Source: the human T2T-CHM13v2.0 reference genome, Homo sapiens. Taken from it: a stretch of DNA of 64,000 bases. The position numbers were made by a program, and so were the translations under genes. The notes below the pieces were generated by a model. The model did not search any database. It was not told the origin of the DNA and worked only from the letters and a program-made list of their open reading frames with translations. Location of the stretch: the NCBI RefSeq assembly GCF_009914755.1, contig NC_060925.1, one strand, 5' to 3'. This document shows positions 36,937 through 40,792 of this stretch, piece after piece (the stretch's first letter is position 1; the number at the start of each line of letters is the position of its first letter).

Positions 36937-37137
36937 CTTTTTTTTTTAAAAGACAGAGTCTCGTTCTGTTGCCCAGGCTGGAGTGCAGTGGTCTGAGGCT
37001 AATTTTTGTAATTTTTCAATAGAGATGGAGTTTCACCATGTTGGCCAGGCTGGTTTTGAACTCCTGACCTTAGGTGATCCACCCGCCTCAGCCTCCCAAA
37101 GTGCTGAGATTACAGGTGTGAGCCACCGCTCCTGGCC
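36878..37137 (-). mobile_element. AluS with ~100-bp right-arm deletion and (TA)n tail
   Basis: (TA)n to 36933; GAGTGCAGTGGT joined almost directly to GGCTAATTTTTG. Confidence 0.88.
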
Positions 37138-37534
37138 GTTCTCGCGTATTTTTAAAGGAGATTTACAGTGAGTTGCGTTGAGATTTGTTTTGATGTATTT
37201 CATGATATGCGTAGACTCTAGGCAGTGCCAGCACCCCAGGCCAAGTCCTGTTTCACCAAGGGGGAATTTGGAGTGCCTGGGGGCTGACTGAGCAACCCCC
37301 AGCTTGCATCTTCCTTCACTTGCACAGACCAGAGTCGGGAATAGAGTGGGGCGAGGCAGGCCCTTGCAGGGCCCTGAGAGTAATTCCTCTTTAAATGTTA
37401 CCCCCTTCGGTGCCCCATCTACCTCACTGTGGTGCCAGCCCTGGTGTGGACTGTAGCCCGCCAGCTCAGAGCTGGGCAGCCAGCCATAAGCACACACTGG
37501 AAACTGTGACTCCTGAGTTGTTGTTGTTTTGACC

Positions 37535-38865
37535 AAAAAGATTGTATATATTTATCCTGTACAACATGTTGTTTTAAAATATGCAGACACTGTGAAATGG
37601 CTAAATCGAGCTAATTAACACGTGTATCACCTCACATACTTATCATTATTTTCTGGTGAAAACACTTAACATCTGCTGTCAGCACATCTTCAAGACTGCA
37701 ATACGTTGTTATTAACTATAATCACCATGTTATGTCATAGATCTCTTGAACTCATTCCTCTCTTCTAACTGAAATTCTATGTCCTTTGACCAAATTCTCC
37801 CCAAACATCTCTCCTCCTCCCAGGCCCTGGTAACCACCATTCTACTCTGCTTCTGTGAGTTCAACTGTTTTAGATTCCACATATAAGTAAGGTCATAAGG
37901 TATTTGTCTCTCTGTGGTATTTGTCTCCTGCTTCACTTCACATAATGTCCTCCAGGTCCATCCATGTTGTTGAAAATGACAGGATTTCCCTCTTTCTTGT
38001 TGTTTGTTTGTTTGTTTTGAGACAGGGTCTCTCACTCCCATAGCCCAGGATGGAGTGCAGTGGCATAAACTTGGCTCAACTTCTGTGATGGTTAATACTG
38101 AGTGTCAACTTGATTGGATTGAAGGTTGCAAAGCATTGTTCCTGGTTTGGCTGTGTCCCCACCCAAATCTCACCTTGAATTGTAATAATCCCATGTCAAG
38201 GGCAGAGCCAGGTGGAGATAATTGAATCATGGGTGCAGTTCCCCCATACTGTTCTTGTGGTAGTGAATAAGTCTCATGAGATCTGATGTTTTATAAAGGG
38301 CAGTTCCCCCGCACACACTCTCTTGCCTGTTGCCATGTAAGATGTGCCTTTGCTTCTCCCTTGCCTTCTGCCGTCGTTGCAAGGCCTCCTCAGCTCTGTG
38401 GAACTGTGAGTCCATTAAAACTCTTTCCTTTATAAATGACCCAGTCTCAGGTATGTCTTTATTAGCAGCATGAGAACCAACTAATACAACTTCCCAGGCT
38501 CAGGTAATCCTTCCCACCTCAGCCTCCCAAGTAGCTGGGACTACAGGAATGCACCACCACACCTGGCTAATTTTTGTATTTTTAGTAGAGAGGGGGTTTC
38601 ACTGTGTTGCTTAGGCTGGTCTTGAACTTCTGGGCTCAAGTGATCCACCTGCCTTGGCCTCCCTCTTTTTTATGGCTGAATAATACTCCATTGTGTATCT
38701 CTACCCCATTTTCTTTATCCACTCATCTGTTGATGACACTTAGGTTGCTTCCATATCTTGTCTATTGTGAACAGTGTGGCAACGAACATGAGAGTGCACC
38801 TATCTCTTGGACATACTGGCTTCATTTCCCTTGGATTTACATCCAGAAGTGGGGTTGCTGGGTCC
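37535..38865 (-). mobile_element. L1MA 3' region interrupted by an AluJ (38001-38660) that itself contains an LTR
   Basis: GGCTAAATCGAGCTAATTAACA; TTAGATTCCACATATAAGT; L1 resumes TTTTTATGGCTGAATAATACTCCATTGTGTAT. Confidence 0.88.
38084..38488 (+). mobile_element. chimeric solo LTR: MLT2A (HERV-L) 5' 62 bp fused to THE1 (THE1C-like)
   Basis: TGTGATGGTTAATACTGAGTGTCAACTTGATTGGATTGAAGG start; TGGTTTGGCTGTGTCCCCACCCAAATCTC...CTAATACA; ACTTC TSD on both sides. Confidence 0.9.
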
Positions 38866-40792
38866 TGTGAATCCTGATCTCTAATCTCAAGTTTCCCACC
38901 TACTGTTGGCCCTGGGCAGCCCTTCTGCCTTCTTAGGACCTTGCTTTTCTCATCTGTGCAATGGGAGAGTTGGATCACTTTCCTTGGGCCTGATCAGCCC
39001 TAAATTGTAGAATTCTTCTAGCGCTTTTGCACAAAGAAGACCCAAAGGCCCTCGCACGCCTGTGCCTGGTCAGCCCACATTAGCCCAAACCTTCCTGGCT
39101 AAGTAAAGCTGTGAGCTGTAGAAGGAGAGTGGGCCAGAAGCTGATGCTGGCTCACCTGTGACCCCAGCAAGATGGAACATGCTGTTACTCTGTGGCTCCT
39201 CGTGTTGGCTGTGCTGGGAAGAACATCCCAAACAGAGGGGAAAATCATTTCTGGCACTGAATAAAAGGAACATCCTCTACTGAGGCACCTGGGGACACAG
39301 CAGCCCCTTAGGTCTGTGGCTCCCAGTCTGAGAGAGAGCACTGTTCTTGTCCAGCCTGTTCAGATAGGGACATTTCTTCCCATCCCAACCTCTGGGTCAC
39401 GTAGCTGTCCTCCTTTGCCCCTGGGGCTGGGCGCCACAGTTCCCAGGCCACATTAGCATGGAATCGAGCCCATCTCCCAGCCTAAGTGCTCACTGAGCAG
39501 CAGCCAATTAATCCCTGAGCAGTGCGTCCGACACACGCTGTAAAACAGAGACGACTCAAAGCCCAGAATATGAGCCACGGTCAGTACATTTTGAGTTGCT
39601 CAGCCATGAGCAGCACAGATGGTGGCACAGTGGCTCAGCCCCCGGCAGGCAAGGGAGGTGTCCACCTCTGGGAGACAGAGAAACATGTGCACTCTCTGTC
39701 CCCTCCACCCTGCTGCCAACTTTGCAACGTAGAAAGTGTCCCAACATGAAGAGGAGAAAGAACAGAGACCCTTGAGAAATTCGAGCAACATTTTCCTGGA
39801 CCTCGCACGATTGCCACCTGCCTGGGTCACGGGGTACCCCCTTAGCTCTGGTCATATCAGCATCATCGCACATGGCCAAGTCTTCTTTGAGTGCCCACCG
39901 CATGCCCACAGCTGTTCCCGGGATGCACGCCAGACGAGGTACCCCTTTGTACTGCACGATCGGTAGCAGTGTCTTCTCCTCACCAAGCCTCTGCTTCTCA
40001 TATGGAAATCAGTCAAGATGACAGCATCGTCACTCATGAGACTGTTGTGACCACACAGGCAGAGCACTTGGCAGGGGACCTGGCGTGCAGAGCGTCCTCA
40101 ACACATTATACTCACTGCACGTGTGAGTCTCTGGGAGGGGCACGTGGCTCTGCCATCCTGCAGCTTGCAGCTGGTTAAGGAGGCAGTGCTTCCAGAGAGA
40201 GGTCATCTGAAGACCGAACCTTGCAATGCGCCCCATTAGTGCCACAGGATGGCAAGGGAGATTGAGCATGGGCTGGGGGTGGGAGGGCTCTGGAGGGAGC
40301 TTGAAGCACAGATAGGACTTGGGGTGGCGTTATCTGGGAGAGGGGGGCAGAGAAGTCCAGCGGTGGAGACAGTATGTGTGGTGCATCCAGGCAGTGGCTG
40401 GAGCATCCAGCGGCAGGATGGGGGGTGTTCCACCCTCCCTCCCTTCCCTGGTTCCTGCTCCACAAGGCCGTGTGGTCCTCAGAGCTGAGGGAGAGCAAGG
40501 CCTGAGAGTTGGGGAGACTTAGGGAGTGCACAAACCCTGCCCTGAGTGTGGCCACCCTGGACTTGATCATCTGTGCTGGGCAACAACCAAAAGAGCGTAA
40601 GCAGAGTGGGACTTGAACGCTTTGCCCTGCAGATTACCCTGCCCTCCCCTACTCCTAGGGCCTCAGGCCAGGCTGCATCCTGGAAATGTGAGAGAAAAAG
40701 GAGCAGGCTGCTTTCTGAGGCCAAGCGCTGAATTCTCAGCGCCCAGGATGGGGTCCCTAGCCAGCCAGGCATGGCGGGGCCTCCCTGCAGTC

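What the first reader, a model, noticed from the sequence alone, without database searches (positions are those of the whole stretch)
38079..38493. HERV-L (MLT2A) x THE1 chimeric LTR integrated as one unit
Seen: 38084-38145 reads as the first ~62 nt of an MLT2A LTR and runs through a shared TGG (38143-38145) into a THE1 LTR lacking only its first ~5 nt, ending CTAATACA at 38488. One 5-bp TSD, ACTTC (38079-83 and 38489-93), flanks the whole fusion inside an AluJ. Established: ERVL/MaLR integrations make 5-bp TSDs, and MaLRs lack pol and are presumed to depend on ERVL. Inference: this is not nested insertion but a recombinant made during reverse transcription, with minus-strand synthesis switching from THE1 U3 to a co-packaged HERV-L RNA. 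That would be a fossil of the helper-parasite relationship and possibly one member of an unannotated chimeric LTR family.
Basis: partly seen in the sequence, partly recalled or inferred. Interest (0 to 1): 0.8.

Follow-up and report, generated by a model that had tools for sequence, protein, structure and literature searches.

The report
One-off HERV-L/THE1 recombinant solo LTR
A 405-base remnant of an ancient retrovirus-like element carries the first 62 bases of one family's end-repeat fused to the rest of another family's, and it entered the genome as a single piece; it is a lone curiosity rather than a new repeat family.

Summary
Window 38084-38488 is one 405-nt LTR. Its nt 1-62 match the 5' ends of many MLT2A-type (HERV-L) LTRs. 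From the shared TGG (38143-38145) onward it matches THE1-type (ERVL-MaLR) LTRs to their last base, lacking only THE1's first 5 nt. An identical ACTTC flanks the whole, inside one Alu.

The junction occurs nowhere else in the open parts of T2T-CHM13, so the "unannotated chimeric family" idea is not supported.

A 5-bp duplication is the family signature: 12 of 31 THE1 copies have it perfectly, against 0 of 930 mismatched controls. The unit therefore integrated once.

The best explanation is a template switch at a 3-nt microhomology, 5 nt from the U3 start, between a THE1 and a HERV-L template during reverse transcription. LTR-LTR recombination later left a solo LTR. This step is inferred, not shown.

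The body is neither THE1A nor THE1D. It is B/C-like, probably THE1C. Age is roughly 40-55 Myr. It is a neat but single fossil of a known process.

The parts
38079..38083 (.). left copy of the 5-bp target-site duplication (ACTTC)
   Evidence: identical to 38489-38493. A 5-bp duplication is the family rule: 12 of 31 THE1-type copies 5/5, 6 of 31 4/5; control 0 of 930 5/5
38084..38145 (+). MLT2A-type (HERV-L LTR) nt 1-62, i.e. the 5' end of U3, including the shared TGG
   Evidence: 34 of 40 scored loci match only this part; 2-5 mismatches to each of 22 copies; those copies start at the same base next to unrelated flanks. ERV-L nature of such LTRs: RVT_1, rve and a weak dUTPase signal upstream of two 3' LTRs
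38143..38145 (+). crossover: TGG shared by MLT2A-type nt 60-62 and THE1-type nt 6-8, inside a patch of partial similarity that runs to 38155
   Evidence: alignments; MLT2A-type matches extend to query nt 72 with one gap
38143..38488 (+). THE1-type (ERVL-MaLR) LTR nt 6 to last base: rest of U3, R and U5
   Evidence: 86-89% to 39 scored copies, 82% to the THE1B upstream of CRH; the 3' terminus has the THE1-type spacing
38292..38297 (+). TATA-like motif of the THE1 part; by alignment to two promoter-active THE1A LTRs the start of R falls at about 38312-38326
   Evidence: motif scan, and mapping of the RefSeq gene starts of SQOR and AFAP1-AS1 onto the window; inference by homology
38414..38419 (+). 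ATTAAA, a candidate polyadenylation signal of the THE1 part
   Evidence: its role is inferred
38489..38493 (.). right copy of the target-site duplication (ACTTC)
38000..38083 (-). host Alu, piece left of the insertion (T-rich tail, then body)
   Evidence: alignments to other Alus end at 38078
38489..38663 (-). host Alu, piece right of the insertion
   Evidence: Metazoa_SRP E 3.8e-6, mir-1268 E 3.6e-7, both below gathering score

Best explanation
This is a solo LTR of a recombinant ERVL/MaLR element that integrated once, about 40-55 million years ago, into an Alu. Its U3 begins with the first 62 nt of a HERV-L (MLT2A-type) LTR. From a shared TGG onward it is a THE1 LTR (B/C-like, probably THE1C) to the last base. 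Shown: both homologies, the position of the junction, the single 5-bp duplication, and uniqueness in this genome. Inferred: minus-strand DNA synthesis was copying the U3 of a THE1 RNA towards its 5' end. Five nt before the end, it moved to a HERV-L RNA in the same particle, pairing through TGG and a neighbouring patch of partial similarity. It then ran on through HERV-L U3 nt 62-1 into the HERV-L polypurine tract. Plus-strand synthesis gave both LTRs of the new provirus the chimeric U3. Integrase made the 5-bp duplication. Later LTR-LTR recombination left one LTR. No function today is indicated.
For: Head and body homologies with a sharp switch in TGG. THE1's own first 5 nt are absent and there is no inner duplication, so the junction was not made by integrase. 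ACTTC flanks the whole unit, and both flanks are adjoining parts of one Alu. The 5-bp duplication is the family signature, with a control of 0 of 930. The HERV-L part starts exactly at LTR nt 1, next to the duplication; a switch in U3 followed by priming at the polypurine tract gives this automatically (one search shows where such LTRs start). The junction lies in U3. The 3' terminus is THE1-type. The copy is unique, as expected for the direct product of a rare event. Divergence of the THE1 part is ordinary for its group: star branch 0.067 against a mean of 0.064. [quoted passage not shown] A contrast case, L077, is a THE1/MLT2A junction without matching flanks.
Against: There is only one locus, and a solo LTR at that. 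No internal region, polypurine tract or second LTR survives to show which template followed the switch. The RNA-level step cannot be observed. The Alu lacks 11 nt beside the left ACTTC and carries a near-repeat of this motif there, so the duplication reading, though far the more economical, is not beyond doubt. MLT2A-type copies in my sample look somewhat more diverged than the THE1 group (star branches 0.085-0.10 against 0.064), so overlap in time rests mainly on print. Orthologous and empty sites were not available. Matches in closed regions of the reference are not shown.
Confidence: 0.6

Rival explanations
1. The chimera was made one or more generations earlier, in a parent element whose 3' LTR carried this U3. 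The window's copy is a progeny copy, and the parent has since been lost or lies in a closed region.
For: It has the same anatomy as the main explanation and the same single duplication. Closed regions are not searched (notes).
Against: No second copy of the junction appears in the open genome at up to 3 mismatches in 30 nt, or with two anchored patterns. A chimera able to copy itself would be expected to leave more than one copy.
Confidence: 0.15
2. An ordinary THE1 solo LTR integrated here. Later a break near its 5' end was repaired by copying about 60 nt from an MLT2A LTR elsewhere (ectopic gene conversion or templated repair).
For: Both ends of the foreign tract lie in short similarities: the two families share 8 of their first 10 nt, plus the TGG. 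It would also leave the duplication intact and produce a unique locus.
Against: The tract would have to end by chance within the first 2 nt of the LTR, without bringing in any MLT2A flank. The reverse-transcription model needs no such coincidence. Homology between the families here is short and poor for conversion.
Confidence: 0.12
3. Two separate insertions at this site, one nested in or abutting the other, were later trimmed by deletions to the present form.
For: Such joins exist: L077 on chr17 joins a THE1 5' part to an MLT2A 3' part.
Against: It needs at least two deletions with base-exact ends, so that MLT2A nt 1 abuts the left ACTTC and THE1's last base abuts the right one. No remnant of a second duplication or of the missing LTR parts is present. 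L077, the likely deletion product, has flanks matching at 1 of 5 positions.
Confidence: 0.05
4. Non-allelic recombination or end-joining occurred between an MLT2A LTR and a distant THE1 LTR on the same chromosome, deleting what lay between them.
For: It would give a chimeric LTR in one step.
Against: The flanks would come from two different sites. Here they are adjoining parts of one Alu and carry the same 5-mer.
Confidence: 0.02

Closest known systems
THE1 LTRs of the ERVL-MaLR group (THE1A-D)
   Same: nt 6 to the end matches at 86-89% to 39 scored genomic copies and 82% to the 366-nt THE1B upstream of CRH. The 3' terminus is the same, as are the 5-bp duplication and the TATA and ATTAAA layout.
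   Different: THE1's first 5 nt are replaced by 62 nt of another family. It lacks the two gaps that mark both THE1A exemplars and is only 74% like the IL2RB LTR. The sub-variant it belongs to gave 2,155 hits of a 26-mer at up to 3 mismatches. I could not tie this variant to a printed subfamily name; THE1C is my reading by elimination.
MLT2A1/MLT2A2, the LTRs of HERV-L
   Same: The first 62 nt start at the same base as genomic copies, with 2-5 mismatches to each of 22 copies. Such LTRs flank pol remnants with RT, integrase and a weak dUTPase signal. This matches the printed description of HERVL/MLT2 with a dUTPase at the end of pol.
   Different: Only 62 of about 445-570 nt are present. A1 versus A2 cannot be told from this stretch. 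The name MLT2A is recalled and supported by print, not by a repeat library.
Recombinant (mosaic) endogenous retroviruses and LTR retrotransposons made by template switching
   Same: Two parental families are joined at a short microhomology, and the product integrated as one unit. Printed examples: mosaic HERVs are common (Vargiu 2016, PMC4724089, passages). Also seen, as search listing and start of abstract only: template switching creating complex insertions in Triticeae (PMC1950507), high-frequency recombination within an LTR retrotransposon family (PMC5668417), and a review of recombination linked to reverse transcription (PMC6894440).
   Different: Here the partners are a presumed helper (HERV-L) and its non-autonomous dependant (THE1). 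The switch is at the very start of U3, and only one copy exists. My searches found no printed ERVL x MaLR chimeric LTR. Zuo 2023 says recombination and mosaic forms among MaLRs 'still await further evidence'.
L077 (chr17:51,095,054-51,095,579), a THE1/MLT2A join of the opposite polarity
   Same: The same two families lie in the same orientation, with one LTR-like unit running from a TG start to a CA end.
   Different: THE1 supplies the 5' 278 nt and MLT2A the 3' 270 nt. The flanking 5-mers match at 1 of 5, and the adjacent flanks are unique DNA. It is most simply a deletion between neighbours, not a single integration.

Membership tests
ERVL-MaLR THE1 LTR | Sequence homology over the LTR to genomic THE1 copies and to a copy named in print | tested here: met
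   nt 59-63 to 405 at 86-89% to 39 of 39 other scored loci; 82% to the 366-nt THE1B upstream of CRH
ERVL-MaLR THE1 LTR | Own 5' terminus (copies start TGATATGG) | tested here: not met
   The first 5 nt are absent and replaced by 62 nt of MLT2A type
ERVL-MaLR THE1 LTR | 3' terminus ...CTAATACA with THE1 spacing, and a 5-bp target duplication | tested here: met
THE1A subfamily | Structural differences from THE1B listed by Zuo 2023 (a 10-nt deletion and a deletion-insertion further 3') | tested here: not met
   Both gaps are present in the SQOR and AFAP1-AS1 LTRs and absent from the window copy; identity to them is 70%
THE1D subfamily | Closeness to the IL2RB promoter LTR (the name THE1D for it is recalled; I saw only the paper's title) | tested here: not met
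   74% identity; that LTR has extra segments that the window copy lacks
THE1B / THE1C subfamily | Best match to the subfamily model of a repeat library | not testable with these tools
   No Dfam/Repbase library is at hand. The window's group is distinct from the CRH THE1B (82-85% against 88-90% within the group). It is slightly nearer the IL2RB LTR than THE1B is (75% against 73.5%), as expected for a form between D and B. A 26-mer of this group gave 2,155 hits against 5,375 for a handicapped B-type 26-mer. THE1C is therefore probable, not shown.
MLT2A (HERV-L LTR) | Homology to the LTR from its first base | tested here: met
   nt 1-62 only: 34 of 40 scored loci; copies start at the same base next to unrelated flanks
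MLT2A (HERV-L LTR) | Remainder of the LTR (about 380-510 nt more) | tested here: not met
   No MLT2A-type similarity beyond window 38155
MLT2A (HERV-L LTR) | LTRs of this type flank an ERV-L pol (RT, integrase, dUTPase after integrase) | tested here: met
   Tested on relatives, not on the window. Separate ORF pieces upstream of two 3' LTRs (L006, L028) gave RVT_1 at E 9.7e-8, rve at E 3.6e-7, and dUTPase only weakly (Pfam E 0.018, below cut-off; PDB dUTPases E 0.005-0.01).
Recombinant LTR made during reverse transcription | Junction at a microhomology, not at an element terminus | tested here: met
   Shared TGG, with partial similarity over the next 10 nt
Recombinant LTR made during reverse transcription | One target duplication around the whole chimera, with flanks contiguous in the host | tested here: met
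   Caveat: 11 nt of the Alu are missing beside the site.
Recombinant LTR made during reverse transcription | Both LTRs of the provirus carry the same chimera, and the internal region shows the acceptor template | not testable with these tools
   Only a solo LTR remains
Recombinant LTR made during reverse transcription | Parents active at the same time in the same cells | tested here: inconclusive
   Print gives overlapping windows and shared DUX4/8-cell expression. My divergence figures are 0.064 for the THE1 group and 0.085-0.10 for a mixed MLT2A sample.
Chimeric LTR family (several copies) | Further loci with the same junction and independent flanks | tested here: not met
   Only the window's locus was found. 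Closed regions were not seen.
Nested insertion | Inner element with intact termini and its own duplication inside the outer element | tested here: not met

The most novel reading that the evidence does not exclude
This locus is the direct integration product of a particle that held both a THE1 RNA and a HERV-L RNA. That would make it the first sequence-level record that primate MaLRs were packaged and reverse-transcribed together with HERV-L, the helper long presumed but never shown. A bolder extension is that the insertion predates the split of Old and New World monkeys and that the chimeric LTR founded a small lineage in some other primate.
Probability: 0.5. Interest if true: 0.6.

Novelty: new member of a known kind. 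Interest (0 to 1): 0.4.

Why it matters
MaLRs make up about 4% of the human genome and have only a gag-like ORF, so they must have borrowed enzymes. ERV-L is the presumed donor, on grounds of relatedness. A LTR whose U3 passes from THE1 into HERV-L at a microhomology, and which integrated as one unit, is the kind of trace that co-packaging would leave. It would turn a presumption into something that can be checked across primate genomes.

It also shows that recombination between MaLR and ERV-L templates did occur. The current succession model of MaLR evolution leaves this out explicitly.

The limits are plain. It is one locus, a solo LTR, with no sign of present function, and the process itself (retroviral template switching) is textbook.

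Tried and rejected
Chimeric family: the 30-nt junction at up to 3 mismatches gave 4 places, the window plus 3 THE1 copies. Those 3 carry no MLT2A head within 1.5 kb (best head match 10 nt or less). A head anchor plus THE1 5' anchor, and a head anchor plus THE1 3' anchor, each gave only the window. These anchored patterns need exact matches, so their sensitivity for 7-9% diverged copies is low.

Reciprocal chimeras: one anchored pattern gave one locus, L077, which has no matching flanks.

3' end possibly from MLT2A (a double crossover): rejected. The last 20 nt have THE1 spacing, and MLT2A-type ends are 2 nt longer there.

Rfam at gathering score found nothing in 37000-39500.

Subfamily naming: no repeat library was available. 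Smit 1993 and Cohen 2011 are not held. No THE1C copy tied to a gene could be found in print. The first exons of IL23R and the 5' end of THOC5 gave no usable THE1A LTR in the pieces fetched.

Head variants do not separate short from long MLT2A-type LTRs.

Soft-masking: window.fa carries no case. The annotation table lists only masked stretches of 100 nt or more.

Less biased dating sample: not obtained. I used only that call's identity table. Another group member has top-40 identities of 88-90%, against 86-89% for the window copy.

Rows dropped: one search used 31 of 32 THE1-type loci (L023 is cut at its 3' end). One search used 22 of 26 MLT2A-type loci (L004 and L005 lack 1-2 first bases; L009 and L019 are truncated). 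Both samples were chosen by similarity to the window, which biases the window's branch downward. The 62-nt head's branch (0.016) is therefore not informative.

Substitution rates used for ages (1.2-2.2e-9 per site per year) are recalled, not taken from a call.
Full report
WHAT IS THERE. Window 38084-38488 is a 405-nt unit that begins TGTGATGG and ends CTAATACA. ACTTC lies directly before it (38079-38083) and directly after it (38489-38493). I searched the window's own genome with 38084-38200 (40 scored of 225 first-look candidates). Thirty-four loci matched only query nt 1-3 to 61-72, at 90-97% identity. Five matched only nt 59-62 to 113-117. Only the window's own locus spanned both parts. I then searched with all 405 nt (40 scored of 7,687 candidates). 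Thirty-nine loci started at nt 59-63 and ran to nt 402-405 at 86-89%. Again only the window covered nt 1-405.

Alignments of copies as they stand show where the switch lies. The first group reads on after ...TTCCTGG with its own sequence. The second group begins TGATATGG and then reads as the window does. The two parents therefore meet in a shared TGG (38143-38145), and the second parent lacks its first 5 nt. The first group's similarity can be carried, with one gap, to 38155. The crossover thus sits in a small patch of partial similarity.

NAMES OF THE TWO PARENTS. No repeat library was available, so names rest on print and on a core gene. For the body I located LTRs that papers name:
- The 366-nt THE1B within 2 kb of the CRH promoter (Dunn-Fletcher 2018, PMC6166974, passages). 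It was the only THE1-type hit in the 10 kb I fetched.
- The THE1A that starts AFAP1-AS1 (Babaian and Mager 2016, PMC5134097, passages).
- The THE1A at the SQOR start (Zuo 2023, PMC10735291, Introduction and Results sections and passages).
- The LTR at the most upstream IL2RB start, which I recall as THE1D (Cohen 2011; I saw only the title).

Identity of the window's body to these is 82%, 70%, 70% and 74% respectively, against 88-90% to its best genomic relatives. Both THE1A exemplars carry the 10-nt gap and the second gap that Zuo lists as THE1A characters; the window copy carries neither. The body is therefore THE1, not A and not D.

Its group is distinct from the CRH-type THE1B. It is slightly nearer the IL2RB LTR than THE1B is (75% against 73.5%). 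That fits a form between D and B in Zuo's order D, C, B, A. A 26-mer typical of the group has 2,155 genomic matches at up to 3 mismatches. A B-type 26-mer that carries a private change and a CpG has 5,375. I read the body as probably THE1C, but this is by elimination.

For the head, 24 of 26 fetched copies start at the same base next to unrelated flanks, and two lack 1-2 first bases. Twenty-three of the other 25 align with one another far beyond nt 72. The copies end ...CTGACTAATACA. Two of them are 3' LTRs whose upstream DNA is homologous. Separate ORF pieces there match RVT_1 (E 9.7e-8) and rve (E 3.6e-7). They match dUTPase only weakly: Pfam E 0.018, below cut-off, and PDB dUTPases at E 0.005-0.01. 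This agrees with the printed picture of HERVL/MLT2 with a dUTPase at the end of pol (Vargiu 2016, PMC4724089, passages). The label MLT2A itself is recalled. A1 versus A2 cannot be told from 62 nt.

ONE INTEGRATION OR SEVERAL EVENTS. Of 31 THE1-type copies, 12 have identical 5-nt flanks and 6 match at 4 of 5. Pairing the left flank of one locus with the right flank of another gives 0 of 930 identical. The window's unit has 5 of 5 when its ends are taken as MLT2A nt 1 and the last THE1 base. The flanks are adjoining parts of one Alu on the minus strand.

This excludes a deletion between two distant LTRs. It also makes nested insertions trimmed by base-exact deletions very unlikely. The junction itself was not made by integrase, because THE1's terminal 5 nt and any inner duplication are missing. 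The 3' end is THE1-type, not MLT2A-type, so there is a single crossover.

One detail remains unexplained. Compared with five other Alus of the window, this Alu lacks 11 nt directly left of the left ACTTC, and Alus carry a near-repeat of the motif at that place. Reading both ACTTC copies as native Alu bases would need two deletions, the same substitution twice, and an integration without any duplication. I therefore keep the duplication reading but flag the caveat.

HOW IT AROSE. By alignment to the two promoter-active THE1A LTRs, the start of R falls near 38312-38326, about 20-30 nt after a TATA-like motif at 38292-38297. An ATTAAA lies at 38414-38419. The junction is thus at the very start of U3.

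In retroviral replication U3 is copied from the 3' part of the RNA, towards the polypurine tract. A switch of the growing minus strand from a THE1 RNA to a HERV-L RNA at TGG, 5 nt short of the THE1 U3 start, would copy HERV-L U3 nt 62-1 and then the HERV-L polypurine tract. The new LTR then begins exactly at HERV-L nt 1. That is what is seen, with no further coincidence needed.

A post-integration repair patch copied from an MLT2A elsewhere would have to stop by chance within the first 2 nt of the LTR. Both models leave a unique locus.

Print gives the setting. MaLRs have only a gag-like ORF and cannot replicate alone. [quoted passage not shown] MLT2A1/2 entered simian ancestors about 65-45 Mya, and HERV-L died out about 40-30 Mya. 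HERV-L and MaLR are both expressed at the 8-cell stage (review PMC11359688, passages). DUX4 binds both THE1 and MLT2A1 LTRs (Young 2013, PMC3836709, passages). The template switch and the co-packaging are inference.

NOT A FAMILY. The 30-nt junction at up to 3 mismatches occurs 4 times. Three of these are ordinary THE1 copies without any MLT2A head nearby. Two anchored patterns find only the window. Matches in closed regions are not shown, and the anchored patterns are insensitive. Even so, a family of even a few dozen copies would have topped the scored lists.

A pattern for the opposite polarity found one locus, L077 on chr17. There, about 278 nt of a THE1 5' part abut about 270 nt of an MLT2A 3' part. 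Its flanks match at 1 of 5 and are unique DNA. It looks like two neighbours joined by a deletion, and it shows what such a product looks like.

AGE. I made no consensus. From pairwise Kimura distances I took the least-squares branch of each copy on a star tree. The window's THE1 part has a branch of 0.067 (0.055 with CpG-prone columns masked). The mean for 31 relatives is 0.064 (0.050), and the window ranks 10th longest of 32. Another member of the group has top-40 identities of 88-90%, against 86-89% for the window. The copy is therefore of ordinary age for its group.

With recalled rates of 1.2-2.2e-9 per site per year this gives about 25-56 Myr. The sample is biased towards little-diverged copies, so this is on the low side.

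Print bounds the age further. THE1 is simian-specific: it arose after the tarsier split, within the last 70 Myr, and is more than 40 Myr old. THE1B is dated at about 50 Myr. THE1B occurs in Old and New World primates. The insertion is younger than its host Alu. I put it at roughly 40-55 Myr.

MLT2A-type copies in my mixed sample have branches of 0.085-0.10. The HERV-L partner would then have been among the later active members of that family.

VERDICT. The reverse-transcription origin is the best explanation but rests on inference. The family idea fails. My searches found no printed ERVL x MaLR chimeric LTR, and Zuo 2023 notes that recombination among MaLRs awaits evidence. This is a new member of a known kind, a recombinant LTR. 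It has modest general interest and real, though anecdotal, interest for the helper-dependant question.

Noticed in passing
L077 1490-2015 (chr17:51,095,054-51,095,579): A THE1-type LTR 5' part (about 278 nt) directly abuts an MLT2A-type LTR 3' part (about 270 nt) in the same orientation. This is the opposite polarity to the window's chimera. The flanking 5-mers match at 1 of 5 and the adjacent flanks are unique DNA, so it is probably two neighbouring insertions joined by a deletion.
   Followed up: partly
window 38073-38083 and 38489-38500: The host Alu lacks 11 nt, relative to five other Alus of the window, directly left of the left ACTTC. Alus carry a near-repeat of this motif there. It is unexplained whether the gap predates, accompanies or follows the insertion.
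   Followed up: partly
window 38219-38229: TAATTGAATCA in the THE1 part fits a DUX4-type double-homeobox motif. The motif is recalled from memory, not taken from a tool. Print says DUX4 binds THE1 and MLT2A1 LTRs.
   Followed up: no
window 37937-38779 (chr1.tsv masked_repeat rows): The annotation table lists masked stretches at 37937-38071, 38141-38361 and 38485-38779. It lists nothing of 100 nt or more over the MLT2A-type head (38084-38140) or over 38362-38484. The public masking may therefore treat the head as unassigned or as a short separate hit.
   Followed up: no
L032 (chr6:100,810,524-100,813,873): The best relative of the THE1 part (89%) is one LTR of a two-LTR element. The group's 26-mer recurs 2,182 nt away on the same strand, and the LTR is followed by non-flank internal sequence shared with L024 and L037.
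   Followed up: no
L033 1496-1851 and 2671-2743: A THE1-type LTR has an MLT2A-type head in the opposite orientation about 820 nt downstream. This looks like ordinary neighbourhood, not a chimera.
   Followed up: no
window 37600-37999 and 38664-38800: The Alu itself sits in an older repeat that I recognise from memory as the 3' part of an L1. It is bounded by a short direct repeat around the Alu, and the Alu lacks its first few dozen bases. A 12-nt tandem duplication lies at 37899-37927.
   Followed up: no
L068 3115-3468 and L075 267-619: The two LTRs that print calls THE1A (SQOR, AFAP1-AS1) are only 72-73% identical to the CRH THE1B and 85% to each other. That is far more distant than 'fifteen substitutions and four structural changes' between the subfamily models would suggest.
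   Followed up: no
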